The position numbers and the translations under genes were made by a program. A stretch of DNA of 23,064 bases from Cereibacter sphaeroides 2.4.1 (GTDB lineage Bacteria > Pseudomonadota > Alphaproteobacteria > Rhodobacterales > Rhodobacteraceae). Shown piece after piece: positions 5,366 through 21,941 of this stretch. A model generated the notes under the pieces. It had not been told where the DNA came from and made no database searches. It worked only from the letters and a program-made list of their open reading frames with translations. How positions within the stretch are numbered: position 1 is the first letter of the stretch; each line of letters opens with the position of its first letter. The stretch is from contig NC_009007.1 in NCBI RefSeq assembly GCF_000012905.2, positions 90,982 to 114,045 on the forward strand. The letters run 5' to 3'.

Positions 5366-7238
<1,873 letters not shown>

Positions 7239-7293
7239 TTACGCCCCGGTCCCCCCGTTGCCCACCCCGCGCGGGAGCCCGCGGGGCGCCTTG

Positions 7294-8070: not shown

Positions 8071-8082
8071 CCAGAAAAGGAT

Positions 8083-8398: not shown

Positions 8399-8433
8399 CC
8401 CCCGCCTCGCCGCGGCTCGGGGCGAGGCGGGGG
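8399..8433. repeat. Strong G+C hairpin (13-bp perfect stem, 9-nt loop) in ORF-poor DNA
   Basis: Bases 8399-8411 (ccccc gcctcgcc) pair perfectly with 8421-8433 (ggcgaggc ggggg). No T tract follows on either strand. Confidence 0.4.
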
Positions 8434-9384: not shown

Positions 9385-9402
9385 CGGCCCCAAAGGAAGG
9401 GC

Positions 9403-9438
9403 GGCCGCAGCAGCCTCGGGATCCGAAGAGCTGCGGCC
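9403..9438 (+). terminator. Candidate stem-loop downstream of the small membrane ORF
   Basis: GGCCGCAGC (9403-9411) pairs with GCTGCGGCC (9430-9438), a 9-bp stem with an 18-nt loop. It lies 19 nt after the TAA at 9382-9384. There is no U tract, so it is not a canonical intrinsic terminator. Confidence 0.25.
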
Positions 9439-9509
9439 TACTCCCGGGCGGCGCGGGGCCGCCGGGGGATGGCGCCATGATAGCGCAAACATCGGCCGGG
9501 CGGGACGCG

Positions 9510-9668: not shown

Positions 9669-10673
9669 ATGCGGCGCATCCTCGTCACCGGCACGGCCGG
9701 CTTCATCGGCTTCCATCTCGCGCGCCTCCTGCTGGCCGAGGGCTTCCGCGTCCATGGCTACGACGGGATGACCGACTATTACGACGTGGCCCTCAAGCGG
9801 CGGCGCCATGCGATGCTGCTGCAGGACCCGAACTTCTCGGCCACGGAGGGCATGCTCGAGGATCAGGCGCTCTTCGACCGCGTGGCCGATGAGTTCGCGC
9901 CCGAGGTGATCGTCCATCTCGCGGCCCAGGCGGGCGTGCGCTATTCGGTCGAGAACCCGCGCGCCTATCTCGATGCGAATGTGATCGGCAGCTTCACCGT
10001 GATGGAGGCCGCGCGGCGGCTGAAGGTGGCCCACCTGATGATGGCCTCCACCTCCTCGGTCTATGGCGCCAACGAGGAGATGCCCTTCCGCGAGACCGAC
10101 AAGGCCGACCGCCAGCTCACGATCTATGCCGCGACCAAGAAGGCCAACGAGAGCATGGGCCACGCCTGGGCGCATGTGCATGGCCTGCCCATCACGATGT
10201 TCCGCTTCTTCACCGTCTACGGCCCCTGGGGGCGGCCCGATCTTGCGCTGTTCCGGTTCGTCGAGGCGATCCTCGAGGACCGGCCGATCGAGATCTACAA
10301 CCACGGCGAGATGTGGCGCGACTTCACCTATGTGGACGATCTCGTCCGCGCGATCCGGCTCCTGATCGAGGCCGTGCCCGGCGGCCCCGAAACGGCGGTC
10401 GAGGAGGACAGCCTCTCGCCCGCAGCCCCCTTCCGCATCGTCAACATCGGCAATTCCGACAAGGTGCGGCTGCTGGATTTCGTGGAGGCGATCGAGGAGA
10501 GCCTCGGGCGGCGCGCGATCCGCAGCTACCTGCCGATGCAGGTGGGCGACGTGCCCGCGACCTGGGCCGACGCGGGGCTTCTCCAGCGCCTGACCGGCTA
10601 CCGCCCGCAGACGGACATCCGCGACGGGATCGCGCAGTTCGTCTCGTGGTATCGCGATTACACGGGGAAGTAG
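9669..10673 (+). CDS. NAD-dependent epimerase/dehydratase, UDP-glucuronate 4-epimerase-like
   Basis: 334 aa from the ATG at 9669, with GAAGGGG about 7 nt upstream. It has the Rossmann motif [19 protein letters not shown], and the catalytic YAATKKANE (YxxxK). Overall it resembles the Cap1J/LpsL-type UDP-GlcA 4-epimerases. The track ORF starting at 9477 is an upstream extension. Confidence 0.85.
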
Positions 10674-10792
10674 TCACACCCGTTTGCCTCGTCGGAAACG
10701 TCGGGTTAGAGAAGAGGCGCCGGGAGATCCGCAGGACTTTCCCGCAGGACAGAAGGCCAGGATGCGGCCCTTCGCAACAAGGAGATGACCGC

Positions 10793-11845
10793 TTGGCACG
10801 ACTGCTTCTCCACATTGGCGCACATAAGACGGCGACCAGCTACATCCAGCGGCGCTTTCATCTCAATCGCGACCTGCTCGCCCGGCACGGCATCCTCTAT
10901 CCCGACATCGGGCCGAACCGGGCCCATCACATTCTCGCCACGCCTTGGATCGACATTCCCGAAATTCCCGAGAGCTATTGGGGCCCCGAAGAAACAGGGT
11001 CGACTGGGCGCACGAGGCAGGACGCTTTCTTCGAGAAATTCACGAAGGACTATGCCTCCCAGAAGGGTACCGTCTTCCTGTCCGCCGAGGTTTTCAGCCG
11101 AGCCCTGCCCCAGCATGTGGACATGGCAGATCTAGCCAAGCGCCTGTCGGATTTCGAAGAGGTGAAGATTGTCTATGTGGTGCGGCACCAGACGGATTAC
11201 ATCCAGTCCATCTGGCTTCAGGTGGCCAAAAACGGCAGGGCGGGAAGATTTGATCCGTTCCTTGCACATGCCCTTCAGAAGCATCTGGCATCTGGGGTAT
11301 GGATCGATCATCATAAGGTGATCGAGAACGTGCTGAGCGGCTTCAGCCGCGACCAGCTCATCCTTTTTGACTATGAGACCATACGCAAACATCCCGAAGG
11401 GGTCATAGGACCTTTTCTCGAGCTTCTGGGATCTCCTCTCCATGTTCATGATCTCGCCGAACTCGACAATCGAGAGGCGAATATCTCTCCAGACCCTCTG
11501 GCAATCTGGATGACACATGCCGCCTTCTTCCCAAACCCGCTCAAGCTCGGCCTTTACCAGAAGCTGAAGGACGCGCTTGACAGGATCAGGGAAAATTACG
11601 GCAAGAAAAAAACCAGCCTCTACACGCGCGCACAGTACGAAGCGGTCATTCAGGCCTCCAGCGAGATGAACATCCCGCTCCGGGGGTGGCTCGAGTCCGA
11701 CAAGGGTGACTCCCCAATCTTCACAACTCCGTCGTCAGATCAGATACTTTTTCGGGACGATCTGACGGAAGCTGATTTGGGTCCTTATCTCCCGGAAGAA
11801 AACCTGCGCATGCGCGAGAAACTCAGGGCTGCCCTCTCGCAATAG
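10793..11845 (+). CDS. Sulfotransferase-like protein (paralog of 18630-19622)
   Basis: 350 aa if started at the TTG at 10793, which has AAGGAG 9 nt upstream. The N-terminus MARLLLHIGAHKTATSYIQ parallels MARVVLHIGTHKTATTTIQ of the other paralog and resembles a 5'-PSB PAPS-binding loop. VVRHQTDYIQSIW resembles a 3'-PB motif. G+C is visibly lower than in the flanks. The 510-aa track ORF is an extension through the epimerase 3' end. Confidence 0.65.
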   Translation: MARLLLHIGAHKTATSYIQRRFHLNRDLLARHGILYPDIGPNRAHHILATPWIDIPEIPESYWGPEETGSTGRTRQDAFFEKFTKDYASQKGTVFLSAEVFSRALPQHVDMADLAKRLSDFEEVKIVYVVRHQTDYIQSIWLQVAKNGRAGRFDPFLAHALQKHLASGVWIDHHKVIENVLSGFSRDQLILFDYETIRKHPEGVIGPFLELLGSPLHVHDLAELDNREANISPDPLAIWMTHAAFFPNPLKLGLYQKLKDALDRIRENYGKKKTSLYTRAQYEAVIQASSEMNIPLRGWLESDKGDSPIFTTPSSDQILFRDDLTEADLGPYLPEENLRMREKLRAALSQ

Positions 11846-11869
11846 AAATAGCGCCTTCGCCCTGCTTTT

Positions 11870-12559
11870 TCATATCAAAACCGTGGCTTCCGGCCCGGCG
11901 AGACGGCTTTCAAGGATTGCAAGGGTGGCATAGGTGGCGTGGCTTGCGAGCCGGATATTCCGACGCGCGAGTTCGCTCATCGTCTTCGTCACCCGCTCGG
12001 GCGGAAGTCGATGCTTATAGGAGTTCTTGGTAACCGGGGCTTCTGCCGCCTGAAGGCCTTGGGATGTCAGAAAATGCGGCAGGTCAGCGCCGATCCGTTC
12101 CATGCGGATCACATGGGTGCGCCCAGAGGGTAGTTCGCTCGCGATCTGCGGCGGCAAATACCATCCCAGATCGAACTGCATGTGGAGCTTGCTTGCCCTC
12201 AGCGCCGCAACGGCTGCCTGTCGTCGCTCCCTCCGGGGATCCGTGAGCGCCTCTGCCAGATCGTTTGCAGTCAGGAAGGCACCGAATATCCGCCGCCAGG
12301 TTTCATTCTTGAGGCGACGCCCGTCCCCGTCGAGGCTCTTGGAGTGAAGATCCCATTCGAAAGCCGACACGAACCGGTCAACCGGATCGCGGGTCAGGAC
12401 GATGAAGATGTCGGAGGGATCGTGCCTCAGAACGGCATCGGCAAGCTGCAGATTGGCGTCATGGACGTGATAGATCTCGAGGCCCGCCACCTGGGGCTGG
12501 AGGGTGCGGATAACGGATTCTCCGGCACATTTGCCGACATGGACGAGATGGTAGGGCAA
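11870..12559 (-). CDS. Sulfotransferase family 2-like protein
   Basis: 229 aa, TTG start at 12557-12559 with GAGAGGA upstream. HVGKCAGESV matches the 5'-PSB motif (h.PK.aGtS.) and LTRDPVDRFVSAF matches the 3'-PB motif (RdP.dR.vS.f) of carbohydrate sulfotransferases of the Sulfotransfer_2 type. Confidence 0.75.
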   Translation of the reverse strand: MPYHLVHVGKCAGESVIRTLQPQVAGLEIYHVHDANLQLADAVLRHDPSDIFIVLTRDPVDRFVSAFEWDLHSKSLDGDGRRLKNETWRRIFGAFLTANDLAEALTDPRRERRQAAVAALRASKLHMQFDLGWYLPPQIASELPSGRTHVIRMERIGADLPHFLTSQGLQAAEAPVTKNSYKHRLPPERVTKTMSELARRNIRLASHATYATLAILESRLAGPEATVLI

Positions 12560-12648
12560 GAAAATCCTCTCTTCTGCAGAAGCAGAGTCACCAGACGGAA
12601 GGTTCTGAGCAACCCGCGGAACGGCGAGTCAGGCCTCGTTCATTGGCA

Positions 12649-13971
12649 TTATCGATCACCATGTTCCAGCCGCTCGATCAGCCGCTCCATGTACCAGGCG
12701 TTGCTGAGTGGATTTACGCCCCAGGACTGGTAGTAGATGTGGGCCACATGGTCGGCAATGCGGGTGCCGTCGCGCAGGACGAGCTGCCGCGCCAGCTCTC
12801 CCCCAGGGCTCAGCTCATCCGCGTAGGTGAAGCTGTCGCGCAGATAGTCGGCATCGTTGTCCATGGCTCCATCCTGGGCATTCGCCACGGTATCCTCTCC
12901 GATCTGTGCCCTCTGGCAGGCTTCACTGACGGATCCTTTTCCCCGGCGGAAGGTCAGGAAGGCCACGTCCGGCCTGCCCTCGCGTTTCAGGCAGGGGTTC
13001 AGATAGCTGTGTGTGTTGACGATGAAGCCCAAGGGCGGCGGATGTCCCGACCGGGGATTGAGGGCGCGTGAGGAGAGCCACAGGTTCCGGACCCGGATCG
13101 CATAGCGGTTCGGATTCTGTTTCCCCATGGAATAAGGGTAGCCGATCACCACCTCGGCGATTTCGAGAGCCCGCCCCGGCAGCTCCTGTTCGGCCTGTGC
13201 CTTGGCCAGAGATCGGACTGCATCGGTAAGATCAGTCGTAGGCTTAGCATCGGGGGTTGGTTCGCTGTAGACGGGGTTTCGGGGAACCCTTCCCACTTGC
13301 CACAGCGGAAGATTGACCAGCCATCGAACCTGGACTGTTTGTTTTTCTTGAGCCGCCTCGATCCGATCGCGCAGTTCGACCATGTAGGCATGCACGATCT
13401 GTCCGGCGCTTCGCACGTCAAAGCCCGCGCCGGCCGTCTCCCGGCAACCTGCTGGCTTGTCCGAATCCGGGAGGAGCCGGAGCATCGGCCCGTCAACGTT
13501 GATCGCCGAGACGGGGATGCCGGCATCGGTCAGCCGTCTCACATTGCGCTCGAACTCGAACGCGGCGGCTGCACGGCCCAAAGCCTCTGGCGAAAGGCTG
13601 GCGTCACAGCGGGCGCCCGACAGGCCCACGCCCGCCTCATAGGTCACCTGCAGCCCCGTTCGCGCGACAATGGCGGCAAGTCCTCCCAGATCTGCATCGG
13701 TCAGATAGGTATCGTCCGGGCGGCGTTTTTCTCCCTTGGCGCCGATCCCCCGGAAGTCGGTGGTCATCAGGAAGGAGGCATTGAGCACGATCCCCTCCAC
13801 CCCCGCGCGGTCGAGCTCCTGCCAGAGCGGCAGGTTCGCGGCGGCGAAGATCTCGCGGTTGTCGAGCGCCCGGGGGCCGGGGCCGTAGATCGCCTCGGGG
13901 GCCGCCTCCGCCCCCGCGCCGAGGGCGAGGGACAGAAGGGCTGTGAGCAGGGTCGTCCGGAGCAGGGTCAT
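12649..13971 (-). CDS. Secreted hypothetical protein (Sec signal peptide; no recognisable domain)
   Basis: 440 aa from the ATG at 13969-13971, with GGGAGG 5 nt upstream. The N-terminus MTLLRTTLLTALLSLALGAGAEAAP is a typical signal peptide. I cannot assign the remainder to a family. Stop is TAA at 12649-12651. Confidence 0.7.
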   Translation of the reverse strand: MTLLRTTLLTALLSLALGAGAEAAPEAIYGPGPRALDNREIFAAANLPLWQELDRAGVEGIVLNASFLMTTDFRGIGAKGEKRRPDDTYLTDADLGGLAAIVARTGLQVTYEAGVGLSGARCDASLSPEALGRAAAAFEFERNVRRLTDAGIPVSAINVDGPMLRLLPDSDKPAGCRETAGAGFDVRSAGQIVHAYMVELRDRIEAAQEKQTVQVRWLVNLPLWQVGRVPRNPVYSEPTPDAKPTTDLTDAVRSLAKAQAEQELPGRALEIAEVVIGYPYSMGKQNPNRYAIRVRNLWLSSRALNPRSGHPPPLGFIVNTHSYLNPCLKREGRPDVAFLTFRRGKGSVSEACQRAQIGEDTVANAQDGAMDNDADYLRDSFTYADELSPGGELARQLVLRDGTRIADHVAHIYYQSWGVNPLSNAWYMERLIERLEHGDR

Positions 13972-14086
13972 GGGAGCCTCCCGTGGCGGTTTGCCAGAGG
14001 ATGCCGCATTTCCCGGGACGGGCAACCCCCGGCGCCGCGCTTGGGCGCCGGGCGGCGCTCCTCTGCCCGGGGCCGGCCGGGCGGCC

Positions 14087-15028
14087 TCAGAACAGGAAGT
14101 CGTCGCGGGTGAGCATCTCGGAGGAGATCCCCTCGAGCGTGATCCGGTTCGCGCCCACCTCGATCACGACATGGCCGTTCACCTCCGACAGATGGTTCGC
14201 CATCAGATCGCCGAAGCCGGTGATGGCCCCCACCCCGCGCAGGTCGATCCACTCGCCTTCCATGTCGGGCGAGAAGTCGCGGATCCGGTCCCGGCCGAAA
14301 TTGCCGGCGAAGACGAACCGGTCCGCCCCGCCGCCGCCGATCAGGATGTCGTTGCCCGCCCCGCCCACCAGCACGTCGCGCTCCCACTGGCCGTCGAGCC
14401 GGTCGTTGCCCGCGCCGCCGAGCAGCAGGTCGTTGCCGGTGCCGCCGAAGAGCGCATCGGCCCCCTCCATGCCGCGCAGCACATCCGCCCCGCCCCGCCC
14501 CTCGAGCCGGTCGTTGCCGAGCCCGCCCGACAGCGTCTCGGCCAGACGGCTGCCCAGAAGCACATCGGCCCGCGCCGAGCCTATGACGATCTCGATCGAT
14601 TTCACCACATAGGGGCCGAAGGGCTCGGGCCGGAAGTCGTAGCGCCCCGCGGCCAGATCCACCCGGAAGCCGAGCCGCAGGTTGGTGTAGCCGCTCAGGT
14701 CCAGCGTGTCGGTCCCCGCCCCGCCATAGACATCGTCGGCGAGATCCACGCCGCGGATGCGGAACGTGTCGTTGCCGGCCTGGCCGTAGCAGGCGTCATG
14801 GTAGAAGCCGCCGTCCAGAAGGTCGTCGCCATCGCCGCCATAGAGCCGGTCCACGCCGTCGCGGCCGTTGATCGTGTCGTTGCCGTCCCCGCCGACCAGC
14901 CGGTCGGCCCCGGGCCCGCCGTTCAGCAGGTCGTTGCCGGGGGTGCCGGCCGGGGTCTGGGCGAGCGCGCTCTGGGCCAGGGGAGCGGACAGCGGGGAGA
15001 GGCTGGGGAAAGGAGAGACTTCAGGCAT
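14087..15028 (-). CDS. RTX-type calcium-binding repeat protein (probable type I secretion substrate)
   Basis: 313 aa from the ATG at 15026-15028. It has multiple GGxGxDxUx nonapeptides (GGPGADRLVGGDGNDTINGRDGVDRLYGGDGDDLLDGG; GGLGNDRLEGRGGADVLRGMEGADALFGGTGNDLLLGGAGNDRLDG; GGAGNDILIGGGGADRFVF) and no Sec signal. Confidence 0.85.
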   Translation of the reverse strand: MPEVSPFPSLSPLSAPLAQSALAQTPAGTPGNDLLNGGPGADRLVGGDGNDTINGRDGVDRLYGGDGDDLLDGGFYHDACYGQAGNDTFRIRGVDLADDVYGGAGTDTLDLSGYTNLRLGFRVDLAAGRYDFRPEPFGPYVVKSIEIVIGSARADVLLGSRLAETLSGGLGNDRLEGRGGADVLRGMEGADALFGGTGNDLLLGGAGNDRLDGQWERDVLVGGAGNDILIGGGGADRFVFAGNFGRDRIRDFSPDMEGEWIDLRGVGAITGFGDLMANHLSEVNGHVVIEVGANRITLEGISSEMLTRDDFLF

Positions 15029-15209
15029 TGTTTCCAAAATTCCTTCAATAGGGCGCGCCAAACGGGATTTTCTATGTCTGGTCTGAAATCGCGCGTCTTC
15101 CGGAAGAAATCCACGCCGTCCCAACCTTCTGGAAAGAAGGCCCGCCGTCAATCTGCTTGGAAGGACAGGGGCGCCGGGTCCCGGCACCCGCCGGGGCGGG
15201 CCGGAAACC

Positions 15210-16511
15210 TCAATACCAGCGGCCCATCGAGATCAGCTCGACCTGCGCGGCAAGGCGCGTGTTCGTGGCGCTGAAGACCGAGACGCCGACGCTGGTCGTC
15301 GTCCGCCCGGTCAGCCGCGGGCTGAGCGCCTGGGCTCCGTTCGAGACCACGCTCGAGACCGTGACGAGGCCCGTGGCGGTGGAGAAGGCGGCGGGAAAGG
15401 GGGCCACCACATCGGCGGAGGCCGAGGTGGTCACCTTCTGCCAGCAGCTCTGCGTCCCGTCCTGATGGCGGATGTAGCGGCCGTTGGCGTTGCCCGCGCT
15501 CTCGACGATCCCGCCCGCGACCCAGGGCGACCAGGCGCCCTCGCCGCGGGCGCGCGAGAAGAGGATGCCCGGCATGAGGCCCCCGCCCCCCGCCTCCACG
15601 AGAAAGAGCTGCACCTCGCCCGCCCCGCGGCTCTGGTGAAGGAGAAGGCCCGCCTGCACGCCCGCAGGGCCGCCGCTGCTGCCCTGCGCGCTGTCGTAGC
15701 CGTAAAAGCCCGGCGCGAGCGCGCCGTCCACCGCCCCGGCATTGCCGACGAGCGGCGCCGGCGCCCCCAGCCCGAAGGCCCCCACCGTCAAGAGCCGGCC
15801 CGGGGTCGCATCGGCGGCCGAGGCCTGCACCGCGCTTCCGGTGAGGCTGCCCGTCACCACCGCCCCCTGCGGCAGCGCCACCCGCCCGCTCGCCCGGTCG
15901 GCGCTGAGCGCGGTGCGGAAGGAAGTGCCGTCCGGGCTGACCTTCAGCGCGAAGTCGTCGCTGCCCGCAAGCCCGATTTCGGCCCGGCCCGACCAGTCGG
16001 ACTGGAACAGGAGGCTCGCCGTCTCGGCCTCCGCGGCCTTGTTGACCTTGATCCGGTGGCTCGCACCCGCATGGGTGAAGAGCGTGGCGGGGCCCGCCAC
16101 CGCGAGGCGGTTGGTGGCATCGGCCGAGGTGGCGATGCCCAGCGAGGGAAATTCCGGCAGAAGGCCGATCAGCGTGCGCCAGCCCTGGGCGGTGAAGACG
16201 AGCCCCGCTCCCTCGGCCAGCACGAAGGTCTGCCAGCCCGGCTGCGGGGCGAGGAAACGCCAGACCGCCGCCTCCGCGTCCCAGACCGCAAAGGCCTCCT
16301 CCCGCCCTGCCCAGGCCCCTTCGGCGCCCGGGCCCACCAGATGCCGCGCCCCCGCGGCCGGGGCGGCGGGCGGCGCGGAGCGGTCGCGGTCGAGCACGGC
16401 GGGCTGGACCAGCACATCGAGCCGCTGCAGCGCCTCGTTGTGGGTCACATGTTTCTGCGCCTGGGAAGGCAGGATGTAGGGAAGCGACAGGATCGGCGAG
16501 GCGTCGGACAT
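15210..16511 (-). CDS. DUF2793-type, phage-tail-fibre-like protein
   Basis: 433 aa from the ATG at 16509-16511. A GTG at 16529 would add 6 aa. The N-terminus MSDASPILSLPYILPSQAQKHVTHNEALQRLDVLVQ and the internal ..NKAAEAETASLLFQSDWSGRAEIGLAGSDDFALKVSPDG.. match, from memory, the DUF2793 family found in alphaproteobacterial prophage, tail-fibre and GTA-associated proteins. The alternative-frame 488-aa ORF is Arg/Gly-rich junk. Confidence 0.75.
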   Translation of the reverse strand: MSDASPILSLPYILPSQAQKHVTHNEALQRLDVLVQPAVLDRDRSAPPAAPAAGARHLVGPGAEGAWAGREEAFAVWDAEAAVWRFLAPQPGWQTFVLAEGAGLVFTAQGWRTLIGLLPEFPSLGIATSADATNRLAVAGPATLFTHAGASHRIKVNKAAEAETASLLFQSDWSGRAEIGLAGSDDFALKVSPDGTSFRTALSADRASGRVALPQGAVVTGSLTGSAVQASAADATPGRLLTVGAFGLGAPAPLVGNAGAVDGALAPGFYGYDSAQGSSGGPAGVQAGLLLHQSRGAGEVQLFLVEAGGGGLMPGILFSRARGEGAWSPWVAGGIVESAGNANGRYIRHQDGTQSCWQKVTTSASADVVAPFPAAFSTATGLVTVSSVVSNGAQALSPRLTGRTTTSVGVSVFSATNTRLAAQVELISMGRWY

Positions 16512-16647
16512 GAAAAACCCCTTCGGCACAGGATCGGCCGCCGCAGGCTAGGCGGAGAGGGTGAACGGCCGGTGGCCGGAGCGTGCGCTGCCTCCTCCGC
16601 CGGGCGCGGGACACTTCCGCACGGCCCGCCTGCAGGGCGCATCCGGC

Positions 16648-16789
16648 TCGGGGGCCGCCGGACGCGCGGGATCTCCGCCGTCACGCCAGCCGCAGTCTGC
16701 CCGCCGGACGGTATCCGGTTCGGGGCCGCCGGCGTGGGGGCTCCTCGAGGATCGGCGGCAGGCGGGGCTCGACAGGTCGGGGCCGCCGG
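16648..16789. repeat. Three dispersed direct copies of TCGGGGCCGCCGG in a divergent intergenic region
   Basis: Copies lie at 16648-16661 (with one extra G), 16720-16732 and 16777-16789. Copies 1 and 2 also share the upstream ATCCGG(c/t), and copies 1 and 3 share the downstream ACGCG. Start-to-start spacing is 72 and 57 bp. Confidence 0.5.
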
Positions 16790-17113
16790 ACGCGGGAGGT
16801 CTGCCCTGCCCTTCTCCGGCCTGCCGCGGCGACTCCGACGGGCGCTTCGGGCACCGCAACCGGGACGGGGACGGCGCGCCTCCTCCCCCGGAAAAGCCAT
16901 TCCCTTTGAAAGCGGAGTCGAATTTCATTGTTTTCCGGCCCCACTGCCTGCCGAAAGGAACAGGCGCCCCCTGCCCCGGCTTGAAGAAGCCTCGTCGCCG
17001 TCCATAGTCGGAGGACCACCCTCGCCGCCCGCCCTCGCAGCCAGGTCCGGCAGGGCGCTCCCGCGCCCGATCCGGCCGCCCGCCCTGACCCAGCCAGAGG
17101 TTCACCGCGCTTC

Positions 17114-18472
17114 ATGACGTCCGACCAGACCCCTGCCCGCCCAGCCCTTCTCGTCCTCGGAATGCACCGCTCCGGCACCTCGGCCCTTGCGGGCGTGCTC
17201 GGCCGGGCGGGCTTCGCGCTGCCGCAGGAGTTGATGCCTCCGACCGAGCACAATCCGCGGGGCTATTTCGAATCCACCCGGATCTTCCGGCTGAACGATG
17301 CGCTTCTGGCCGCGGCGGGCTCTTCCTGGGACGACTGGCGGGCCTTCGATGCGGACTGGCACCTCTCGCCCGCGGCCGAGCCGTTCCATGCCGAGGCGCA
17401 GGAGGCGCTCGCGGCGGAATTTCCCGGCACGGCGCCGATCGTGCTCAAGGATCCGCGGATCTGCCGGCTGCTGCCCTTCTGGACCCGCGCGCTGACCGAG
17501 GCGGGCTTCCGGCCGCTGGCCGTCTGCACCCACCGCCCCGCGCGCGAGGTGGGCGCCTCGCTCGCGCGCCGCAACGGCTGGCCCGAGGCGCGCGGCCTCC
17601 TGCTCTGGCTGCGCCATGTGCTCGATGCCGAGGCCCAGACCCGCGGCAGGCCCCGGGTCTTCGTCTCCTACGACGGGCTGCTCGCGGACTGGCGGGGAAC
17701 GCTCGGGCGCATCGCGGAGGCCTTCGATCTGGCGCTCCCGCGCCCGCTCGACGAGGCCGCGCCCGAGATCGAGGCCTTCCTCTCGGCCGACCTGCGCCAT
17801 GCGCCGGAGACGCCCGCGGCCGCGGCGGGCCTGTCCGACTGGATCGCCCGCCCCGAGGAGATCCTCGACCGGAAGGCCGCCGGAGAGGACCGCCCCGGAG
17901 ACCGCGAGACGCTCGACCGGATCGCGGCCGAAGTCGCGGCCGCGGCCCCCCTGCTGGCAGACCTCTCCGGAGCGGTGGAGGAACAGGGCGCCCGGCTGGA
18001 GCGCGAGGCGGCCCTGCGCCACGAGGCCCAGACCATCCTGCAGCAGGAGAGGCAGCGGCTCGACGACCTGACGGCCGAGCTGCAGCTCCAGCTCCATCAC
18101 AGGACCCTCCATGTCGCGGAACTGGAGCGTCATGCGGGGGAGCTGGCCCAGCAGCTCCGGCAGAAGACGCAGCACGCGGCCGAACTCGAGCGCCATGCGG
18201 AAGAGCTCGCCCAGCAGCTCCGGCAGCAGAGGTCGCACGCGGCCGAGCTCGAGCGCCATGCCGGAGAGCTCTCGGCCCTGACCCACGAGCTGCGCCAGCA
18301 GGTGCATCACAAGGGCCGGCATGTCCAGGAACTGGAAGCCCACTCGGGAGAGCTCGAAGCGCGGCTTCTCGCTCTCGAGGCCGAGCATGCGGCTCTTCTG
18401 GGCAGCACCTCCTGGAAGGTCACGCACCCCCTGCGCCGCATGTCGCTGGCCTTGCGTCGTCCGAAGACGTGA
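17114..18472 (+). CDS. Sulfotransferase domain fused to a C-terminal tandem-repeat coiled coil
   Basis: 452 aa. LLVLGMHRSGTSALAGVL is a 5'-PSB-like loop and THRPAREVGASLARRNGW is 3'-PB-like. From about residue 285 the sequence is heptad-rich. It contains 21-aa repeats (HVAELERHAGELAQQLRQKTQ / HAAELERHAEELAQQLRQQRS / HAAELERHAGELS... / HVQELEAHSGELEARLLALEAE) and ends with ..STSWKVTHPLRRMSLALRR. Confidence 0.8.
   Translation: MTSDQTPARPALLVLGMHRSGTSALAGVLGRAGFALPQELMPPTEHNPRGYFESTRIFRLNDALLAAAGSSWDDWRAFDADWHLSPAAEPFHAEAQEALAAEFPGTAPIVLKDPRICRLLPFWTRALTEAGFRPLAVCTHRPAREVGASLARRNGWPEARGLLLWLRHVLDAEAQTRGRPRVFVSYDGLLADWRGTLGRIAEAFDLALPRPLDEAAPEIEAFLSADLRHAPETPAAAAGLSDWIARPEEILDRKAAGEDRPGDRETLDRIAAEVAAAAPLLADLSGAVEEQGARLEREAALRHEAQTILQQERQRLDDLTAELQLQLHHRTLHVAELERHAGELAQQLRQKTQHAAELERHAEELAQQLRQQRSHAAELERHAGELSALTHELRQQVHHKGRHVQELEAHSGELEARLLALEAEHAALLGSTSWKVTHPLRRMSLALRRPKT
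18110..18382 (+). repeat. In-frame 63-bp tandem repeats (coiled-coil coding), two well conserved and two degenerate
   Basis: Units start at 18110, 18173, 18236 and 18320. Units 1 and 2 differ at about 13 of 63 positions by hand count. Unit 3 matches unit 2 closely over its first 33 or so nt and then diverges. All units are in frame with the CDS. Confidence 0.7.
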
Positions 18473-18629
18473 GGAGCCCTCCCGGCATGGCAGACCGCCT
18501 TTCTCCCGGAGGGCCTGCCCGCCTCAGAGAGGCTGCCTGACCGCACCGGCCCCCTTATTGCAACCTCTGCCGCGCCTGCTGTCACGCTCCTGCGGCTCCA
18601 CGGATCCCCGCAGCCCGCGACCTCGGGCA

Positions 18630-19622
18630 TCAGCCCCGGCGGGCGCGATAGATCCAGCGGCTGCACCGGATCCAGAACGAGGTGTTGAGCCCATCGCGAT
18701 AGACACGATTCTCCTCGGGATCGCTTTCCGAGATGCGGAACTCCGGCTGCACCGCCTTCCGGCGTTCCGACAGACGGCCGTTACGCTCCTTCGCATATGC
18801 GAAGAGCTGCTGGAACTCCGGGTATGTCCACAGGCAGGACTTGGCCTCTTCGCCATATTCGATGCGAAAGGCACCTGTCGCACAGTCGATCACCCAAGGG
18901 GCCGCTTGGTCCGGTTCCGTGATGACACAGGCCGCAAAGGTCGGCAGCGCCAGCGGCGAAACGTTTGACAGCCCGTCATGGACAACCTGAAGCGAAGAGG
19001 CTGAGAGACCGCAGCCAAGCGTGTCCAGCATGGCACCCACGACCCCGTCCCGATGTCGGCGGCAGGCATCAAAATCGAGGAAAGTGATCTCTTCGGGCGC
19101 GAAGGCAGAAAGCAGATGATCGTAGAGCAGGTTGTAGTCGATCCACAGCCCATCCGTCATGTCGCGTTTGAGAACGGAATCGACCATGGTGGAGGGCTTG
19201 GGCGGTTGCCGCTCCTTGGAAGCCTGCAGATAGATCGACTGCATGAATTGCCATTGCTCACGCAACACGCAAACCACGGACACGCTTTCGAAATCCGAGA
19301 GCAGTTCGCGCACGGCCCGGAAGTCCACCTGAGCACCGGGCTTGCCGCGTGAGAACTCTTCGGAACTGAGAACCAGCGTGCCCGGAACATGAGCGTAGTC
19401 ACGCGTGAGCTGTTTCAGCGTCGCGATACTGCCCTGAGGCAGGGCATACATGTCGGGCAGCTTGTTCCATTCCATCACGAGCCCATGGTGGCCCGCGACG
19501 CGGCTGAGGCGCGGATAGATCACCCCATGCTGCCGCAGAAGGTCCGCATTATGCGCGAACATGTCCTGGATCGTGGTGGTTGCCGTCTTGTGCGTTCCGA
19601 TGTGCAGAACGACTCTTGCCAT
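18630..19622 (-). CDS. Sulfotransferase-like protein (paralog of 10793-11845)
   Basis: 330 aa, ATG at 19620-19622 immediately after the upstream gene's stop (TGAATG). It has MARVVLHIGTHKTATTTIQ and CVLREQWQFMQSIYLQ motifs. It is collinear with the 10793 gene (..DYA..GT..LS.E.FSR.., LSDFE.V, G.WID), at roughly one third identity by eye. G+C is visibly lower. Confidence 0.65.
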   Translation of the reverse strand: MARVVLHIGTHKTATTTIQDMFAHNADLLRQHGVIYPRLSRVAGHHGLVMEWNKLPDMYALPQGSIATLKQLTRDYAHVPGTLVLSSEEFSRGKPGAQVDFRAVRELLSDFESVSVVCVLREQWQFMQSIYLQASKERQPPKPSTMVDSVLKRDMTDGLWIDYNLLYDHLLSAFAPEEITFLDFDACRRHRDGVVGAMLDTLGCGLSASSLQVVHDGLSNVSPLALPTFAACVITEPDQAAPWVIDCATGAFRIEYGEEAKSCLWTYPEFQQLFAYAKERNGRLSERRKAVQPEFRISESDPEENRVYRDGLNTSFWIRCSRWIYRARRG

Positions 19623-21878
19623 TCAGTGTGACCTCATGCCGTGCGCGGGCGGCTCCGCAAGATGGGTGGCGGGCTCCGCCGCTCCCAGATGCTGCCGCAT
19701 CACCTGGAGATTGAGATCGCCGAAGGTCAGGCTCGGCTCGAGGACGGCCTTCTCGGCCCATTCGTTCCAGGCATTGACGAAAAGCTCGCGGCGATAGGAG
19801 GCGGGCACGCGGCGCTCGAGCGCGCCCGCGAGCCAGACGTTGAAGGTGGCGGGATTGGCGCCGTAGGCCACATGGCCCGCCGCCCCGCGCCGGGCCGTAT
19901 TGTCCCAGCCCGGCATGACGCCTGCGATCGTGGCCTTGGGCAGGGTGCGGACATAGGTCTCCGACAGGGCCCGGCGCGCGACGGCGGCGTAATCGTAGAT
20001 CAGCCCCGAGAAGGCGGGGTTCATCGCGGCGGGCATCCGGTTGCCGTCGGGACCGCCGAAGAGATAGTCCGGCCCCTTCACCAGCCCGTGCGGCGGCATC
20101 TCGACCCAGAAGTCGAAGAGCCCCTCGGGCACCGGATGGGCGCCCTCGACATGGAACCGCACCGCGCCGAGCTCGACCTCGCCGATCCCCGCCCGCCGCC
20201 AGCCCTCGCGCAGCCGCGCCACGCTGGCCTGCGGATCGGGCATGTCCTCGGGACGGTAGATTACGAAGCGCGGACGGCGGCCGTCGGGGCGGGCGTAGCG
20301 CGGATCGCGCAGATAGGGGGCGGTGTCGGCGGCGAGCTTCTCCTCGAAGCCCGCGCCATAGGTCTGTTCGAGGAGCACGGTGCCCGACAGCCCGTCCCAG
20401 TTGCGCCGCCAGCTCTCGTTGGCCCAGCAGAGATAGAAGGGGAAGTCGATCTCGGGCCGCGCCATCAGCCGGTCGATCGGCGCCTCGAGGATGCGGCGGC
20501 CGTCGAACCAGTAGTGATAGACGCAGAAGGCGTCGATCCCGGCCTCGCGGGCCATCGCCGCCTGCTCGCCCATCACCTCGGTGGCGCGCAGGTCGTAAAA
20601 GCCCAGATCGGCGGGCAGCATCGGCTGGAGATGGCCCTCGAACATCGAGGGCGCCTTCACCACCGAGCGCCATTCGGTGAAGCCCTTGCCCCACCAGGCG
20701 TCGTTCTCGGGCACGGGGTGGAACTGGGGCAGGTAGAAGGCGCTGACGAAGGCGGGCTTCGCGGGCGCCGCCGCCGCGGCCGGGCGGAGCTCGCTCGTCT
20801 GCAGGACCTTCTGGCCCGCCCGCGCGGTCAGATAGCCCAGCACCCGCTCGATCGCATGGGCGAGGGTGCCGTCGACCTGACCCTCCTCGAGATCGAAATC
20901 CTCGAGCCGGAGCTGCAGGCTGCGCAGAAGCCCCAGCACCAGCGGCTTCACCCAGTAGATCGAGCCCGCCGGGAAGGAGAGCGCCTCGCGGTCGAGCGGG
21001 ATCTCGATGCGCTGAAGCAGATGGCGCGTGGCCTCGACGTTCGAGCCCCACCATTGGGTGCCGGTGTAATGCTGGCCGTCGGCCACCCAGAAGCCCGCCT
21101 CGGGCGCCTCGACGAAGGCCTCGAGCTTCTCCTCGAGCCCGGTCTCGGGCAGGATCCCCTCGATCAGATGCTTCCGCCAGAGATCGCCGTCCTGCCGGTG
21201 GGGCGATTTCTTCGTGTGGAACTTGCAGACCGCCCGGTAGCCGTCGAAGGCGCCCGCATTGAGCAGGGTGACGAAGGGCAGGATGTCGCGACCGCGGTTC
21301 GGCATCGGGGTCACGAAGGCGCCGGGGAAGTCGGCGCGGATCTCCTCGGCCAGCGCGTCGGTCTCCTCGCCGCGATAGGTCAGCGTGACATAGAGGTCGA
21401 ACGGGATGCGGAGCCGCCGCAGACGGGCGGCGAACTCGGGCCAGAGATCGGGATAATAGACATGCACCGCCACCGCATAGGGCGCGGTCTGGCGCCCGTG
21501 CTCGAAACGGACCTGCGGCATGCCGCGGGCGGGCAGCGCCACGACCTCGGGCAGCTCCTTGGTCAGGCGCTGCTCGGCATGGCCCACGCGGACATAATGC
21601 AGGAAGGGCGGCACGCCGGCCTCCGCCACGTCGGGGTGATAGCGCAGATAGGCCTGGGGCGAGAAGTCCGGGTTCGGCCGGTAGCCCAGCCGCTCGCCAT
21701 AGGCGATGTAGTGTTTCTCGGGATATTTCAGGTAGATCGGGTTCAACCCGGGGTAGGCCCCCCGATAATAGGTCCGGTCGAAAAGCCCGCTTTTCCGGAT
21801 GGCGCGGAGATAGCGCCGCTCCTCGCCCGTCAGGACCAGAATCCGGGCAAACCGGCGCAGACGGTGAAATTTCAGCAT
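19623..21878 (-). CDS. Two-domain glycosyltransferase: N-terminal RgpF (rhamnan synthesis F)-like plus C-terminal WbsX/GH99-like
   Basis: 751 aa from the ATG at 21876-21878, with GGAG 6 nt upstream; a TTG at 21890 would add 4 aa. The N-terminal half has AVHVYYPDLWPEFAARLRRLRIPFDLYVTLTY, MPNRGRDILPF and KFHTKKS (RgpF-like). The C-terminal half has FYLPQFHPVPENDAWWGKGFTEWRSV, LPADLGFYDL, FCVYHYWFDGRRILE and YLCWANESWRRNWDG (WbsX-like). Confidence 0.85.
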   Translation of the reverse strand: MLKFHRLRRFARILVLTGEERRYLRAIRKSGLFDRTYYRGAYPGLNPIYLKYPEKHYIAYGERLGYRPNPDFSPQAYLRYHPDVAEAGVPPFLHYVRVGHAEQRLTKELPEVVALPARGMPQVRFEHGRQTAPYAVAVHVYYPDLWPEFAARLRRLRIPFDLYVTLTYRGEETDALAEEIRADFPGAFVTPMPNRGRDILPFVTLLNAGAFDGYRAVCKFHTKKSPHRQDGDLWRKHLIEGILPETGLEEKLEAFVEAPEAGFWVADGQHYTGTQWWGSNVEATRHLLQRIEIPLDREALSFPAGSIYWVKPLVLGLLRSLQLRLEDFDLEEGQVDGTLAHAIERVLGYLTARAGQKVLQTSELRPAAAAAPAKPAFVSAFYLPQFHPVPENDAWWGKGFTEWRSVVKAPSMFEGHLQPMLPADLGFYDLRATEVMGEQAAMAREAGIDAFCVYHYWFDGRRILEAPIDRLMARPEIDFPFYLCWANESWRRNWDGLSGTVLLEQTYGAGFEEKLAADTAPYLRDPRYARPDGRRPRFVIYRPEDMPDPQASVARLREGWRRAGIGEVELGAVRFHVEGAHPVPEGLFDFWVEMPPHGLVKGPDYLFGGPDGNRMPAAMNPAFSGLIYDYAAVARRALSETYVRTLPKATIAGVMPGWDNTARRGAAGHVAYGANPATFNVWLAGALERRVPASYRRELFVNAWNEWAEKAVLEPSLTFGDLNLQVMRQHLGAAEPATHLAEPPAHGMRSH

Positions 21879-21941
21879 GTCCGTCTCCAAATGAATGGCC
21901 GATACCTAACAACTACCTGAGGTAGACGCAAAGGGACGCGG

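What the first reader, a model, noticed from the sequence alone, without database searches (positions are those of the whole stretch)
12649..16511. Tail-fibre-like (DUF2793), RTX and orphan secreted-protein genes embedded in the glycan locus
Three co-oriented genes interrupt the biosynthetic genes: a DUF2793 protein of the phage/GTA tail-fibre-like type, a Ca-binding RTX repeat protein and a Sec-secreted protein with no recognisable domain. In Rhodobacter capsulatus the gene transfer agent recognises capsular polysaccharide through dispersed spike and fibre genes. A fibre-like gene placed inside a capsule-type locus suggests linked inheritance of a glycan receptor and its recognition or remodelling proteins, or a domesticated tail-fibre acting as a surface lectin or depolymerase. 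No other phage structural genes are present in the window.
Basis: inference. Interest (0 to 1): 0.65.

Follow-up and report, generated by a model that had tools for sequence, protein, structure and literature searches.

The report
GTA tail-fibre gene inside glycan locus
A phage-type tail-fibre gene of the kind used by the bacterial gene transfer agent sits inside a plasmid-borne surface-sugar locus of Cereibacter sphaeroides, and this fibre-next-to-glycan arrangement, first noted in Rhodobacter capsulatus, turns out to be the rule across related bacteria.

Summary
The window is Cereibacter (Rhodobacter) sphaeroides 2.4.1 plasmid pA. Three co-oriented minus-strand genes lie between sulfotransferase genes of an ABC-transporter-type polysaccharide locus: a DUF2793 protein, a 313-aa RTX protein and a 440-aa secreted orphan.

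The DUF2793 protein is a complete phage/GTA tail fibre. Its N-terminal domain matches the fibre of the RcGTA-like baseplate of phage R4C. Its C-terminal part has an R-pyocin-fibre-like fold. There is no depolymerase beta-helix and no signal peptide.

Its WS8N orthologue is CtrA-dependent in published RNA-seq, like the gta genes. The RTX and orphan genes are not.

Context comparison:
- 80 species-representative genomes: a polysaccharide gene lies within 5 kb of the fibre gene in 61, an RTX gene in 27, a phage tail module in 0.
- 80 viral contigs: 4, 0 and 77.

So this is most likely the C. sphaeroides GTA receptor-binding fibre, linked to the locus that probably makes its receptor. The orphan is a predicted TIM barrel of a new family that varies together with neighbouring sulfotransferases. 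It and the RTX protein are locus cargo, not fibre partners.

The principle is already published for R. capsulatus. Its generality, its plasmid location and the RTX adjacency were not found in the papers searched.

The parts
15210..16511 (-). DUF2793 tail-fibre gene (433 aa; WP_011836243). Probable receptor-binding fibre of the C. sphaeroides RcGTA-type gene transfer agent.
   Evidence: Pfam PF10983, E 1.4e-28. PHROG tail-fibre families. PDB 8gtc_S, E 5.4e-9. AF2 pLDDT 83.8. Foldseek: R-pyocin fibres at E 3e-8; RDJL Phi 1 fibre at E 4e-16, with 134 viral matches at E<=0.001, among them many named tail fibres. WS8N orthologue is CtrA-dependent. dN/dS 0.33-0.37.
16158..16511 (-). Codons 1-118: N-terminal DUF2793 domain, inferred to dock on the baseplate (megatron/g15-binding).
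   Evidence: Aligns to the fibre protein of the phage R4C baseplate complex (8gtc_S/T). There, nine fibre proteins form three trimers on the hub-megatron complex (PMC10276861). Residues 1-~215 are the only part shared with phage fibres that directly follow g15.
15213..15866 (-). Codons 216-433: distal receptor-binding part. The beta-sandwich at residues 268-431 has pLDDT mostly above 90.
   Evidence: PHROG 2712 tail fibre, residues 218-438. Foldseek: R1/R2 pyocin fibre C-terminal regions, AP22 gp53, T4 gp34, and lectins HPA and SLL-2. This is the least conserved part of the family (43% mean identity) and has the highest dN/dS, 0.41-0.43.
16512..17113 (.). 602-bp G+C-rich intergenic region between the fibre gene and the divergent sulfotransferase gene. 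Presumed fibre promoter.
   Evidence: No TTAA-N7-TTAA in the window and not one TTAA half-site in this stretch. No sigma-70-like site. It is less conserved between strains than the genes: 86% in strain HJ. CtrA control is therefore probably indirect.
14087..15028 (-). RTX calcium-binding repeat protein (313 aa; WP_011836242). Almost all beta-roll repeats plus a type-I-secretion-like C-terminus (...DDFLF).
   Evidence: HemolysinCabind, E 4.6e-31, no other domain. Found only on 11 Cereibacter pA-type plasmids at 94-100% identity. 99.5% identical in ATCC 17029, like the fibre. Not among the CtrA/QS-dependent genes.
12649..13971 (-). Secreted orphan (440 aa; WP_011836241). Predicted (beta/alpha)8 TIM barrel of a family without a Pfam model. 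Probable glycan-active enzyme.
   Evidence: Signal-peptide-like N-terminus. 12 close homologues, all Cereibacter or CZR27; 44 in a profile search of 1.8 billion proteins. AF2 pTM 0.85 with eight alternating strand-helix units. Foldseek finds only weak GH barrel matches, best GH79 8ohv at E 2e-5 and TM 0.37. No Pfam or PDB sequence hit for any of 32 members. dN/dS 0.28.
10793..12559 (.). Two sulfotransferase-like genes (10793-11845 +, 11870-12559 -). Together with the TIM-barrel gene they form a low-G+C hypervariable cassette.
   Evidence: Sulfotransfer_1, E 2.8e-9; Sulfotransfer_2 weak. G+C 0.56-0.61 against about 0.72 elsewhere. In ATCC 17029 the first gene is replaced, the second is 93% identical and the TIM gene 81%, while the rest of the locus is ~99%.
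17114..22742 (.). Rest of the glycan locus in the window: sulfotransferase (17114-18472 +), sulfotransferase-like (18630-19622 -), WbsX/RgpF glycosyltransferase (19623-21878 -), ABC-2 permease (21942-22742 -).
   Evidence: Pfam; RefSeq annotation.
9669..10673 (+). NAD-dependent sugar epimerase/dehydratase, at the left edge of the glycan locus.
   Evidence: Epimerase, E 1.1e-53; annotation.

Best explanation
The DUF2793 gene encodes the receptor-binding tail fibre of the RcGTA-type gene transfer agent of C. sphaeroides. It is the counterpart of R. capsulatus Rcc00171.

Proposed mechanism:
- The gene lies away from the chromosomal head-tail cluster, inside a plasmid-borne locus for a sulfated, rhamnose-type surface polysaccharide exported by an ABC transporter.
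- It is made in the cytoplasm (no signal peptide) when the CckA-ChpT-CtrA relay switches on GTA production. Control is probably indirect, through a GafA-type activator.
- Its N-terminal domain forms trimers that dock on the fibre-binding domain of the megatron (g15) baseplate protein.
- Its C-terminal pyocin-fibre-like, lectin-type domain binds a surface glycan on recipient cells, most plausibly the one made by the surrounding locus.
- Physical linkage on one replicon makes fibre and receptor travel together, so GTA delivery is aimed at kin that carry the same plasmid.

The two downstream genes are cargo of the glycan locus. The secreted TIM barrel probably trims or turns over the glycan, and its specificity tracks the neighbouring sulfotransferases. 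The small RTX protein is a type-I-secreted calcium-binding surface protein of unknown role.

Shown here or in cited papers: fibre identity and fold, CtrA dependence of the orthologue, the context statistics, and the variation pattern.
Inferred: incorporation into GTA particles, the identity of the receptor, and the activities of the TIM and RTX proteins.
For: Fibre identity:
- Pfam DUF2793 at 99 bits.
- The N-domain matches the R4C baseplate fibre 8gtc_S (E 5.4e-9; Foldseek rmsd 2.6 A at 34% identity). That fibre is 30% identical to the RcGTA fibre and sits as three trimers on the hub-megatron complex (PMC10276861).
- C-terminal PHROG tail-fibre hits. Foldseek to R1/R2 pyocin fibres at E 3e-8 to 1e-7, AP22 gp53, T4 gp34. 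134 viral matches at E<=0.001, led by the RDJL Phi 1 fibre and including many named tail fibres.

Link to the GTA:
- Rcc00171 is a DUF2793 protein essential for RcGTA transfer. It lies next to EPS genes (PMC5026251) and binds capsule (PMC10218006).
- DUF2793 co-evolves with GTA genes (PMC10883770).
- The WS8N orthologue RSWS8N_20139 = WP_002724790.1 has log2FC -2.84 in the CtrA-off strain and is flagged as CtrA-controlled. The gta genes are in the same regulon.
- A relative 45% identical over its full length sits directly after g15 in viral contig L092.

The gene is functional:
- dN/dS 0.33-0.37.
- Intact at 97-100% identity on nine of the eleven C. sphaeroides plasmid records; in the other two (CP047039.1, CP047033.1) the match is split into three pieces and carries no annotated gene.

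Linkage to glycan loci:
- 38, 57 and 61 of 80 species-representative loci have a polysaccharide gene within 0.5, 3 and 5 kb. For loci with full flanks it is 45 of 52. None of the 80 has a phage tail module.
- Control set of 80 viral loci: 77 have the tail module and 4 a polysaccharide gene. Fisher p 7e-22 and 2e-42.
- 146 Rhodobacterales plasmid records carry such a gene. All six contexts inspected were polysaccharide loci, five of them on rep_cluster_252 RepA plasmids; the Sulfitobacter plasmid has no replicon typing.
- A C. sphaeroides strain with a different glycan locus (Wzx, Wzy, pyruvyl transferases) carries a fibre allele only 75% identical, at the same plasmid position.
Against: - No experiment shows GTA particles or GTA-mediated transfer in C. 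sphaeroides. None was found in the papers searched.
A chromosomal copy could be the true GTA fibre.
- There is no CtrA box or half-site upstream.
- Expression is very low (FPKM 2.7 against 0.4).
- Fine-scale co-variation fails. Between 2.4.1 and ATCC 17029 a sulfotransferase is swapped and the TIM barrel is 81% identical, yet the fibre is 99% identical. So the fibre does not track every change in the glycan.
- The glycan genes are not listed as CtrA/QS-dependent.
- The 80 genome loci were chosen as the best matches to a query that itself lies in a glycan locus. More distant prophage-borne copies exist (Hynes 2016).
Confidence: 0.6

Rival explanations
1. The fibre serves a different phage-like particle, either a resident RcGTA-like prophage or a tailocin, rather than the GTA. 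The gene is a moron or exchangeable receptor-binding module parked in a glycan locus.
For: The same N-domain is used by true siphophages such as Paracoccus phage R3, RcRhea, RDJL Phi 1 and R4C. Hynes 2016 reports extra rcc00171 homologues in prophages and phage-mediated transfer of the gene. The C-terminal fold resembles R-pyocin fibres.
Against: CtrA dependence matches the GTA regulon. No phage gene lies nearby on pA, either in the roughly 44 kb around the window or in pA 1-50 kb, or in any of 80 loci. The stand-alone arrangement is conserved across genera, which no single prophage would explain.
Confidence: 0.12
2. A domesticated fibre works off any particle, as a cell-surface or matrix lectin or a depolymerase for the plasmid-encoded glycan.
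For: It lies in 'biofilm-plasmid'-type polysaccharide loci in many genera. It has a lectin-like distal domain. It is often adjacent to secreted RTX proteins.
Against: - No signal peptide or secretion motif.
- The baseplate-docking N-domain is among the best conserved parts: identity 0.73-0.75 over residues 1-40.
- No beta-helix or catalytic domain.
- Purified Rcc00171 did not degrade capsule or EPS.
- Expression is CtrA-dependent and low, not co-expressed with the glycan genes.
Confidence: 0.08
3. The three genes form one functional unit, transcribed together: a fibre-like lectin, an RTX protein and a hydrolase that jointly remodel or display the glycan.
For: - The genes are co-oriented with short gaps of 181 and 115 bp.
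- No terminator-like site was found on their strand.
- Fibre and RTX are conserved as a block across C. sphaeroides strains.
- RTX genes are enriched next to DUF2793 genes in other genera: 21 of 80 within 3 kb, and about 22 ORFs in 443 kb near against 6 in 567 kb far, p 4e-4.
Against: - Only the fibre gene is in the CtrA/QS differential list; the other two are not.
- RTX and TIM are absent beside the fibre in strain GCA_021389855 and in CZR27.
- TIM diverges (81%) while fibre and RTX stay at 99%.
- Base composition differs: GC3 0.91, 0.84 and 0.75.
- RTX neighbours elsewhere belong to a different family with a large N-terminal domain and are mostly divergently transcribed.
Confidence: 0.1
4. 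An inert remnant of a degraded prophage.
For: It is a lone phage-type gene, on a plasmid that also carries an ISNCY transposase and an RHS-repeat gene.
Against: The gene is full-length with both domains and under purifying selection. It is conserved at 97-100% across strains and ordered the same way in three of them. It is regulated. No phage neighbours occur in any of 80 related loci.
Confidence: 0.03

Closest known systems
[quoted passage not shown] 2016; Alim et al. 2023)
   Same: - A DUF2793 N-domain followed by an all-beta distal part.
- Encoded away from the head-tail cluster, beside polysaccharide genes.
- Late, CtrA-dependent expression.
- Fast-evolving, with occasional plasmid copies already noted.
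   Different: - Here the gene lies in the middle of a plasmid-borne, sulfotransferase-rich locus with an ABC transporter, not downstream of three chromosomal EPS genes.
- No functional data exist for C. sphaeroides.
Fibre protein gp017 of roseophage vB_DshS-R4C (PDB 8GTC, chains S/T, deposited under the name 'Ribonuclease III')
   Same: The N-terminal ~135 residues align (E 5.4e-9; 34% identity, rmsd 2.6 A). The R4C fibre forms three trimers on the hub-megatron baseplate, which is RcGTA-like.
   Different: The R4C gene follows g15 inside a phage genome and the protein is 230 aa. The window protein is 433 aa, with a different and larger distal domain, and stands alone.
R-type pyocin tail fibres of Pseudomonas aeruginosa (PDB 6CL5, 6CL6, 6CT8)
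   Same: These are the best structural matches for the distal half (E 3e-8 to 1e-7). According to the title and abstract of PMC6363177, they bind core LPS through a lectin-fold receptor-binding domain.
   Different: No detectable sequence relationship (12-17% identity). They belong to a contractile tailocin with a different baseplate attachment.
[quoted passage not shown] 2016, PMC5030684)
   Same: pA has the same replicon type as the Phaeobacter and Leisingera plasmids (rep_cluster_252 RepA with parAB). It carries rfbCBDA and polysaccharide export genes, and those plasmids carry a DUF2793 gene too.
   Different: That paper does not mention GTA, phage, RTX or type I secretion. pA additionally carries many sulfotransferases, sulfate uptake genes, an N-ATPase operon and the Fla2 flagellin.
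Glycoside hydrolases encoded within exopolysaccharide loci, such as PslG, the PelA hydrolase domain, Sph3 and Ega3 (from my own knowledge, not tested here)
   Same: A secreted or periplasmic (beta/alpha)8-barrel protein encoded inside the biosynthetic locus for the polymer it would act on.
   Different: No sequence or confident structural membership in any GH family: Foldseek TM at most 0.41, no Pfam hit. The putative active-site Asp at position 277 is Gly in this allele group.

Membership tests
RcGTA-type tail fibre (Rcc00171 / DUF2793, PF10983) | N-terminal DUF2793 domain above the Pfam gathering score | tested here: met
   99 bits against a cut-off of 27, E 1.4e-28, profile positions 1-87 of 87.
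RcGTA-type tail fibre (Rcc00171 / DUF2793, PF10983) | Homology to a fibre seen bound to an RcGTA-like hub-megatron baseplate | tested here: met
   8gtc_S, E 5.4e-9 over residues 11-148. Foldseek 8gtc_T/S at 33-34% identity, rmsd 2.6-2.7 A. The role of that chain comes from PMC10276861.
RcGTA-type tail fibre (Rcc00171 / DUF2793, PF10983) | Distal receptor-binding region with a tail-fibre fold | tested here: met
   PHROG tail-fibre families 2712, 14458 and 7697. Foldseek to pyocin, AP22, T4 and Bdellovibrio fibres, and to many named viral tail fibres among 134 viral matches at E<=0.001.
RcGTA-type tail fibre (Rcc00171 / DUF2793, PF10983) | Expression with the GTA regulon (CtrA/GafA-dependent) | tested here: met
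   From published RNA-seq, not my own data. WS8N orthologue RSWS8N_20139 has log2FC -2.84, padj 3.7e-4, and is flagged as CtrA-controlled. GafA dependence was not tested. No CtrA site lies upstream.
RcGTA-type tail fibre (Rcc00171 / DUF2793, PF10983) | Host carries an RcGTA-type head-tail cluster with a megatron (g15) to dock on | not tested
   Literature only. The gta genes are named in the C. sphaeroides CtrA regulon, and strain 2.4.1 appears in a genome table of the GTA co-evolution study; I did not read that table's heading. The chromosomes were not available to search.
RcGTA-type tail fibre (Rcc00171 / DUF2793, PF10983) | Present in particles, required for transfer, binds capsule | not testable with these tools
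   Shown for Rcc00171 only.
RcGTA-type tail fibre (Rcc00171 / DUF2793, PF10983) | It is the only (orthologous) DUF2793 gene of the genome | tested here: inconclusive
No C. sphaeroides chromosomal paralogue appears among the top 120 of 4258 homologues.
Phage tailspike depolymerase | Right-handed parallel beta-helix or another catalytic domain | tested here: not met
   The AF2 model has no beta-helix. Tailspike matches cover only 75-116 columns at E above 0.01.
RTX type-I-secretion substrate | Tandem GGxGxD nonapeptide repeats | tested here: met
   HemolysinCabind, E 4.6e-31, 5 stretches; 9 motifs.
RTX type-I-secretion substrate | Uncleaved C-terminal secretion signal | tested here: inconclusive
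   It ends in ...TRDDFLF, like the RTX neighbours in other genera (...DDFIF...DDFLF...SDFLFS). No predictor was run.
RTX type-I-secretion substrate | Cognate ABC/MFP exporter genes nearby | tested here: not met
   None in the window, in the roughly 44 kb around it, or in pA 1-50 kb. The Phaeobacter plasmid does carry them. An exporter elsewhere in the genome is not excluded.
Glycoside hydrolase with a TIM barrel | (beta/alpha)8 fold | tested here: met
   AF2 pTM 0.85, eight strand-helix units. The top Foldseek matches are mostly TIM-barrel proteins, several of them glycoside hydrolases.
Glycoside hydrolase with a TIM barrel | Sequence membership in a described GH family | tested here: not met
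   0 of 32 family members hit any Pfam model. The profile finds nothing significant in the PDB. Best Foldseek hit E 2e-5, TM 0.37.
Glycoside hydrolase with a TIM barrel | Conserved acidic catalytic pair at the strand ends | tested here: inconclusive
   D37, D160 (end of strand 4) and N220 are invariant. D277 (end of strand 6) is nearly invariant but is Gly in the 2.4.1 allele group.
ABC-transporter-dependent surface polysaccharide locus (kps / O-antigen type) | ABC-2 permease, ABC ATPase, outer export protein, nucleotide-sugar and transferase genes | tested here: met
   ABC2_membrane, WbsX/RgpF and Epimerase by Pfam. KpsD-like 'sugar transporter', ABC ATPase, rfbCBDA and kdsA by annotation. 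The polymer itself is unknown.

The most novel reading that the evidence does not exclude
Stand-alone GTA fibre genes and the glycan loci around them form a co-inherited self-recognition ('greenbeard'-like) module, often on RepA 'biofilm' plasmids. The replicon that paints the cell surface also supplies the matching fibre, so GTA particles deliver DNA preferentially to cells carrying the same module. The RTX proteins that recur next to the fibre gene, including a large family with an undescribed N-terminal domain, would be part of this recognition system, for example as glycan-anchored co-receptors or shields. That would give a genetic mechanism for how GTA benefits are confined to kin.
Probability: 0.3. 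Interest if true: 0.75.

Novelty: new member of a known kind. Interest (0 to 1): 0.5.

Why it matters
An open problem in GTA biology is how a trait that kills its producers can be maintained. One proposal is that delivery is limited to close kin by specific polysaccharide receptors (discussed in PMC10883770).

Physical linkage of the fibre gene to a surface-glycan locus would be a simple way to keep the two matched. It is seen here on a C. sphaeroides plasmid and in about three quarters of 80 related genomes, against about 5% of viral contigs. It makes clear predictions: curing or swapping the plasmid should change both donor specificity and recipient capability.

It also connects two bodies of work that have not cited each other in the papers I read: roseobacter 'biofilm plasmids' and GTAs.

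For C. sphaeroides itself it assigns a function to an unannotated CtrA-regulon gene. It also flags an undescribed secreted TIM-barrel family that varies together with sulfotransferases.

Tried and rejected
- Depolymerase/tailspike reading: rejected on structure and on published negative lyase assays for Rcc00171.
- Prophage remnant: rejected.
- Direct CtrA control: I searched for TTAA-N7-TTAA with one mismatch and for TTAA half-sites upstream and found none. The promoter/terminator scan was uninformative.
- Family assignment of the secreted protein by sequence: Pfam, PHROGs, NCBIfam, PDB with a single sequence and with a profile, and Pfam on all 32 relatives all came back empty. Only fold prediction helped.
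- Hynes 2016 supplements are not held. The Kogay 2024 supplements do not list per-genome accessions for these proteins.
- Search for published CtrA data on the Phaeobacter plasmid fibre: the GTA cluster is silent in that study.
- Fine-scale co-variation of fibre and glycan within the species: not found. The fibre is 99% identical where a sulfotransferase is swapped.
- Homology between the window's RTX protein and the RTX neighbours of fibres in other genera: none outside the repeats.
- PADLOC was not run, because nothing pointed to a defence system.

Full report
**Source and anatomy**

The window is 100% identical to Cereibacter (Rhodobacter) sphaeroides 2.4.1 plasmid pA. This is a 124-kb circular, non-mobilizable RepA-type replicon (rep_cluster_252). 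G+C is about 0.72, so most long ORFs are spurious. Codon-position G+C picks out the real genes, and these agree with RefSeq.

Left to right, the window holds:
- an N-ATPase-type operon (about 700-7200, minus strand);
- a strain-variable stretch without recognisable genes (7200-9450);
- a glycan locus: epimerase (9669-10673), sulfotransferase (10793-11845), sulfotransferase-like (11870-12559), the three focal genes, sulfotransferase (17114-18472), sulfotransferase-like (18630-19622), a WbsX/RgpF glycosyltransferase (19623-21878) and an ABC-2 permease (21942-22742).

Just beyond the window, pA continues with a KpsD-like exporter, an ABC ATPase, parAB-repA, a glycosyltransferase, rfbCBDA, two more sulfotransferases and kdsA. 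Elsewhere it carries sulfate-uptake genes and the Fla2 flagellin.

The three focal genes are on the minus strand at exactly the stated limits:
- DUF2793 protein, 15210-16511, 433 aa;
- RTX protein, 14087-15028, 313 aa;
- secreted orphan, 12649-13971, 440 aa.

Domain calls are solid for the first two: PF10983 at 99 bits and HemolysinCabind at E 4.6e-31. The third has a signal-peptide-like N-terminus (judged by eye) and no hit in Pfam, PHROGs, NCBIfam or PDB sequences. No other ORF in the window matches a phage family.

**The DUF2793 protein is a complete tail fibre**

- Residues 11-148 align with chain S of PDB 8GTC (E 5.4e-9). That chain carries the misleading name 'Ribonuclease III'. It is the fibre protein of roseophage R4C. 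Nine copies form three trimers on a hub-megatron baseplate that is RcGTA-like, and it is 30% identical to the RcGTA fibre (PMC10276861).
- The AlphaFold model has mean pLDDT 83.8. It shows a compact N-domain (1-118), a low-confidence linker (120-165) and a confident beta-sandwich at 268-431.
- Foldseek places the distal half with the R1/R2 pyocin fibres (E 3e-8 to 1e-7), AP22 gp53, T4 gp34 and a Bdellovibrio fibre, with snail and coral lectins further down.
- Against viral models, the RDJL Phi 1 fibre is the top hit, and there are 134 matches at E<=0.001, among them many named tail fibres. PHROG tail-fibre families match the C-terminal part.
- There is no beta-helix, no enzyme domain and no signal peptide.
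- In real phages only residues 1 to about 215 are shared, and the gene follows the g12-g15 tail module directly.

**Link to the gene transfer agent**

Hynes et al. 2016 showed that Rcc00171 is a DUF2793 protein essential for RcGTA gene transfer. It is encoded outside the GTA cluster, directly downstream of three EPS genes. The head-spike genes ghsA/B sit next to the capsule-receptor genes. Purified Rcc00171 blocks transfer but does not degrade capsule. Alim et al. 2023 showed that the fibre binds capsule. Kogay et al. 2024 found that DUF2793 co-evolves with GTA genes.

The WS8N orthologue is RSWS8N_20139 = WP_002724790.1, in the same 90%-identity cluster as the window protein. It falls 2.84 log2 units in the CtrA-off strain and is flagged as previously known to be CtrA-controlled. 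The paper names the gta genes in the same regulon. Its neighbours RSWS8N_20129 (the orphan) and, by locus-tag order, 20134 (presumably the RTX gene) are not in the differential list.

No CtrA box and not a single TTAA half-site lies in the 602-bp upstream region. Control is therefore probably indirect, as it is through GafA in R. capsulatus.

**The gene is maintained**

dN/dS is 0.33-0.37 against two alleles about 75% identical, and is highest in the distal part. Nine of the eleven C. sphaeroides plasmid records carry an intact copy at 97-100% identity. In the other two (CP047039.1 and CP047033.1) the match is split into three pieces and no gene is annotated there.

**Is the placement in a glycan locus more than chance?**

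A tblastn search of PLSDB finds the fibre on 146 plasmid records. Nearly all are Rhodobacterales and 140 are non-mobilizable. All six contexts I read were polysaccharide loci. Five were on RepA plasmids of the same replicon type: Phaeobacter, Thalassovita, Jannaschia, Leisingera and Rhodobacter sp. CZR27. The Sulfitobacter plasmid has no replicon typing.

I then fetched the 80 best loci from one-genome-per-species contigs. I annotated their flanks with a panel of 58 reference proteins and a GGxGxD regex.

| Feature near the fibre gene | 80 genome loci | 80 viral (IMG/VR) loci |
|---|---|---|
| Polysaccharide gene within 0.5 kb | 38 | not counted |
| Polysaccharide gene within 3 kb | 57 | not counted |
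| Polysaccharide gene within 5 kb | 61 (45 of 52 with full flanks) | 4 |
| RTX gene within 3 kb | 21 | not counted |
| RTX gene within 5 kb | 27 | 0 |
| RepA/ParAB within 10 kb | 12 | not counted |
| Phage tail module | 0 (within 10 kb) | 77 (within 5 kb) |
| g15 directly upstream | not counted | 63 |

The viral set served as a control, using the same panel. Fisher p values are 7e-22 for polysaccharide genes, 2e-42 for the tail module and 1e-9 for RTX. Both polysaccharide and RTX gene densities fall with distance from the fibre gene.

Two cautions apply. The genome loci were ranked by similarity to a query that itself lies in such a locus. The panel is small, so the polysaccharide counts are lower bounds.

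**Co-variation with the glycan**

At coarse scale the fibre follows the locus type. A C. sphaeroides strain has a Wzx/Wzy/pyruvyl-transferase locus at this plasmid position instead of sulfotransferases. It carries a fibre allele only 75% identical, with no RTX or TIM gene beside it.

At fine scale it does not. Between 2.4.1 and ATCC 17029 the locus is about 99% identical, including fibre (99.0%) and RTX (99.5%). The exception is a low-G+C cassette: the first sulfotransferase is replaced, the second is 93% identical and the orphan is 81%. So the fibre cannot be reading every modification that this cassette makes.

**The secreted orphan**

It has only 12 close relatives, all in Cereibacter or strain CZR27. 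A profile search of 1.8 billion proteins finds 44. None of 32 aligned members hits any Pfam model, and the profile finds nothing in the PDB.

AlphaFold gives a confident (beta/alpha)8 barrel with pTM 0.85. Foldseek returns mostly generic barrel matches, several of them glycoside hydrolases. The best is a GH79 beta-glucuronidase at E 2e-5 and TM 0.37.

Invariant residues include D37, D160 at the end of strand 4, K172, N220 and two cysteines (C122, C176). D277 at the end of strand 6 is nearly invariant but is glycine in the 2.4.1 allele group. dN/dS is 0.28.

My reading, as inference: it is an exported glycan-active enzyme of a new family. Its specificity travels with the adjacent sulfotransferases, by analogy with hydrolases encoded in other exopolysaccharide loci.

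**The RTX protein**

It is almost entirely beta-roll repeats with a C-terminus typical of type I secretion substrates. No exporter genes are nearby on pA. It occurs only on Cereibacter pA-type plasmids.

In other genera the RTX genes beside fibre genes are much larger. Of 27, 22 share a roughly 380-residue N-terminal domain with no Pfam family, and most are transcribed divergently from the fibre. The window's protein lacks that domain. I cannot say what the recurrent adjacency means.

**Verdict**

The fibre is best filed as the C. sphaeroides member of the Rcc00171 family. Its position beside glycan genes repeats something already published for R. capsulatus.

The following were not found in the papers I could search:
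- how general the arrangement is;
- its frequent location on RepA 'biofilm' plasmids, whose key paper mentions neither GTA nor phage;
- the RTX adjacency.

In that library only five papers mention DUF2793, and none combines 'sphaeroides' with 'rcc00171'.

The 'triad' is not a unit, and the depolymerase and surface-lectin readings are not supported.

Still unproven:
- that C. sphaeroides makes GTA particles carrying this protein;
- that the pA glycan is the receptor;
- that no chromosomal paralogue exists.

Noticed in passing
L002 9502-11697; L004 8722-11763; L006 9491-11728; also L033, L063, L086, L087, L013, L055, L027: A family of 750-1500-aa RTX proteins shares a roughly 380-residue N-terminal domain with no Pfam model (only a sub-threshold 7-bladed lactonase-propeller hint). 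These genes lie next to stand-alone DUF2793 fibre genes in Phaeobacter, Sulfitobacter, Leisingera, Roseovarius and others, mostly divergently transcribed.
   Followed up: partly
window 10700-14000: A low-G+C (0.56-0.61) hypervariable cassette holds two sulfotransferase-like genes and the TIM-barrel gene. In ATCC 17029 the first gene is replaced, the second is 93% identical and the third 81%, while the flanks are ~99% identical. This looks like a recombination hot spot for glycan modification.
   Followed up: partly
window 13141-13143 (codon 277 of the 12649-13971 gene): Asp277 is nearly invariant in the TIM-barrel family and sits at the end of strand 6. It is Gly in the 2.4.1 allele group (GYPY instead of DYPY). 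This could mean altered or lost activity.
   Followed up: no
window 700-7200, minus strand: A plasmid-borne second F-type ATPase operon with gene order beta, epsilon, I, a, c, b, alpha, gamma and no delta. From my own knowledge this is the N-ATPase arrangement. It lies immediately beside the glycan locus.
   Followed up: no
window 7200-9450: A stretch with several long high-G+C ORFs but no Pfam, NCBIfam or PHROG hit and only one annotated hypothetical gene. It is present in some C. sphaeroides plasmids and missing from strain HJ and CP147412.
   Followed up: partly
window 16512-17113: An unusually long (602 bp), 74% G+C intergenic region upstream of the fibre gene, with no TTAA at all. It is less conserved between strains (86% in strain HJ) than the flanking genes. 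Its promoter and regulator sites are unknown.
   Followed up: partly
L091 (pA 1-50000): 21795-23499, 37587-41036, 42575-50434: The same plasmid carries the CtrA-dependent Fla2 flagellin genes (flaA, flaF, flbT), a sulfate ABC transporter plus SulP and TauE, and two giant surface-type proteins (Calx-beta and 'ice nucleation'-like). pA thus gathers several cell-surface and CtrA-regulon functions.
   Followed up: no
L141, L143, L134 (IMG/VR contigs): In a few viral or GTA-like contigs the fibre gene follows g12-g15 and is itself followed at once by a polysaccharide gene (wecC-like or sulfotransferase-like). This may be an intermediate arrangement between in-cluster and stand-alone fibres.
   Followed up: no
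PDB 8GTC chains S/T; phage records H107-H115: The DUF2793 fibre is still deposited and annotated as 'Ribonuclease III' in the PDB entry and in several phage genomes. Hynes et al. 2016 already pointed out this error.
   Followed up: yes
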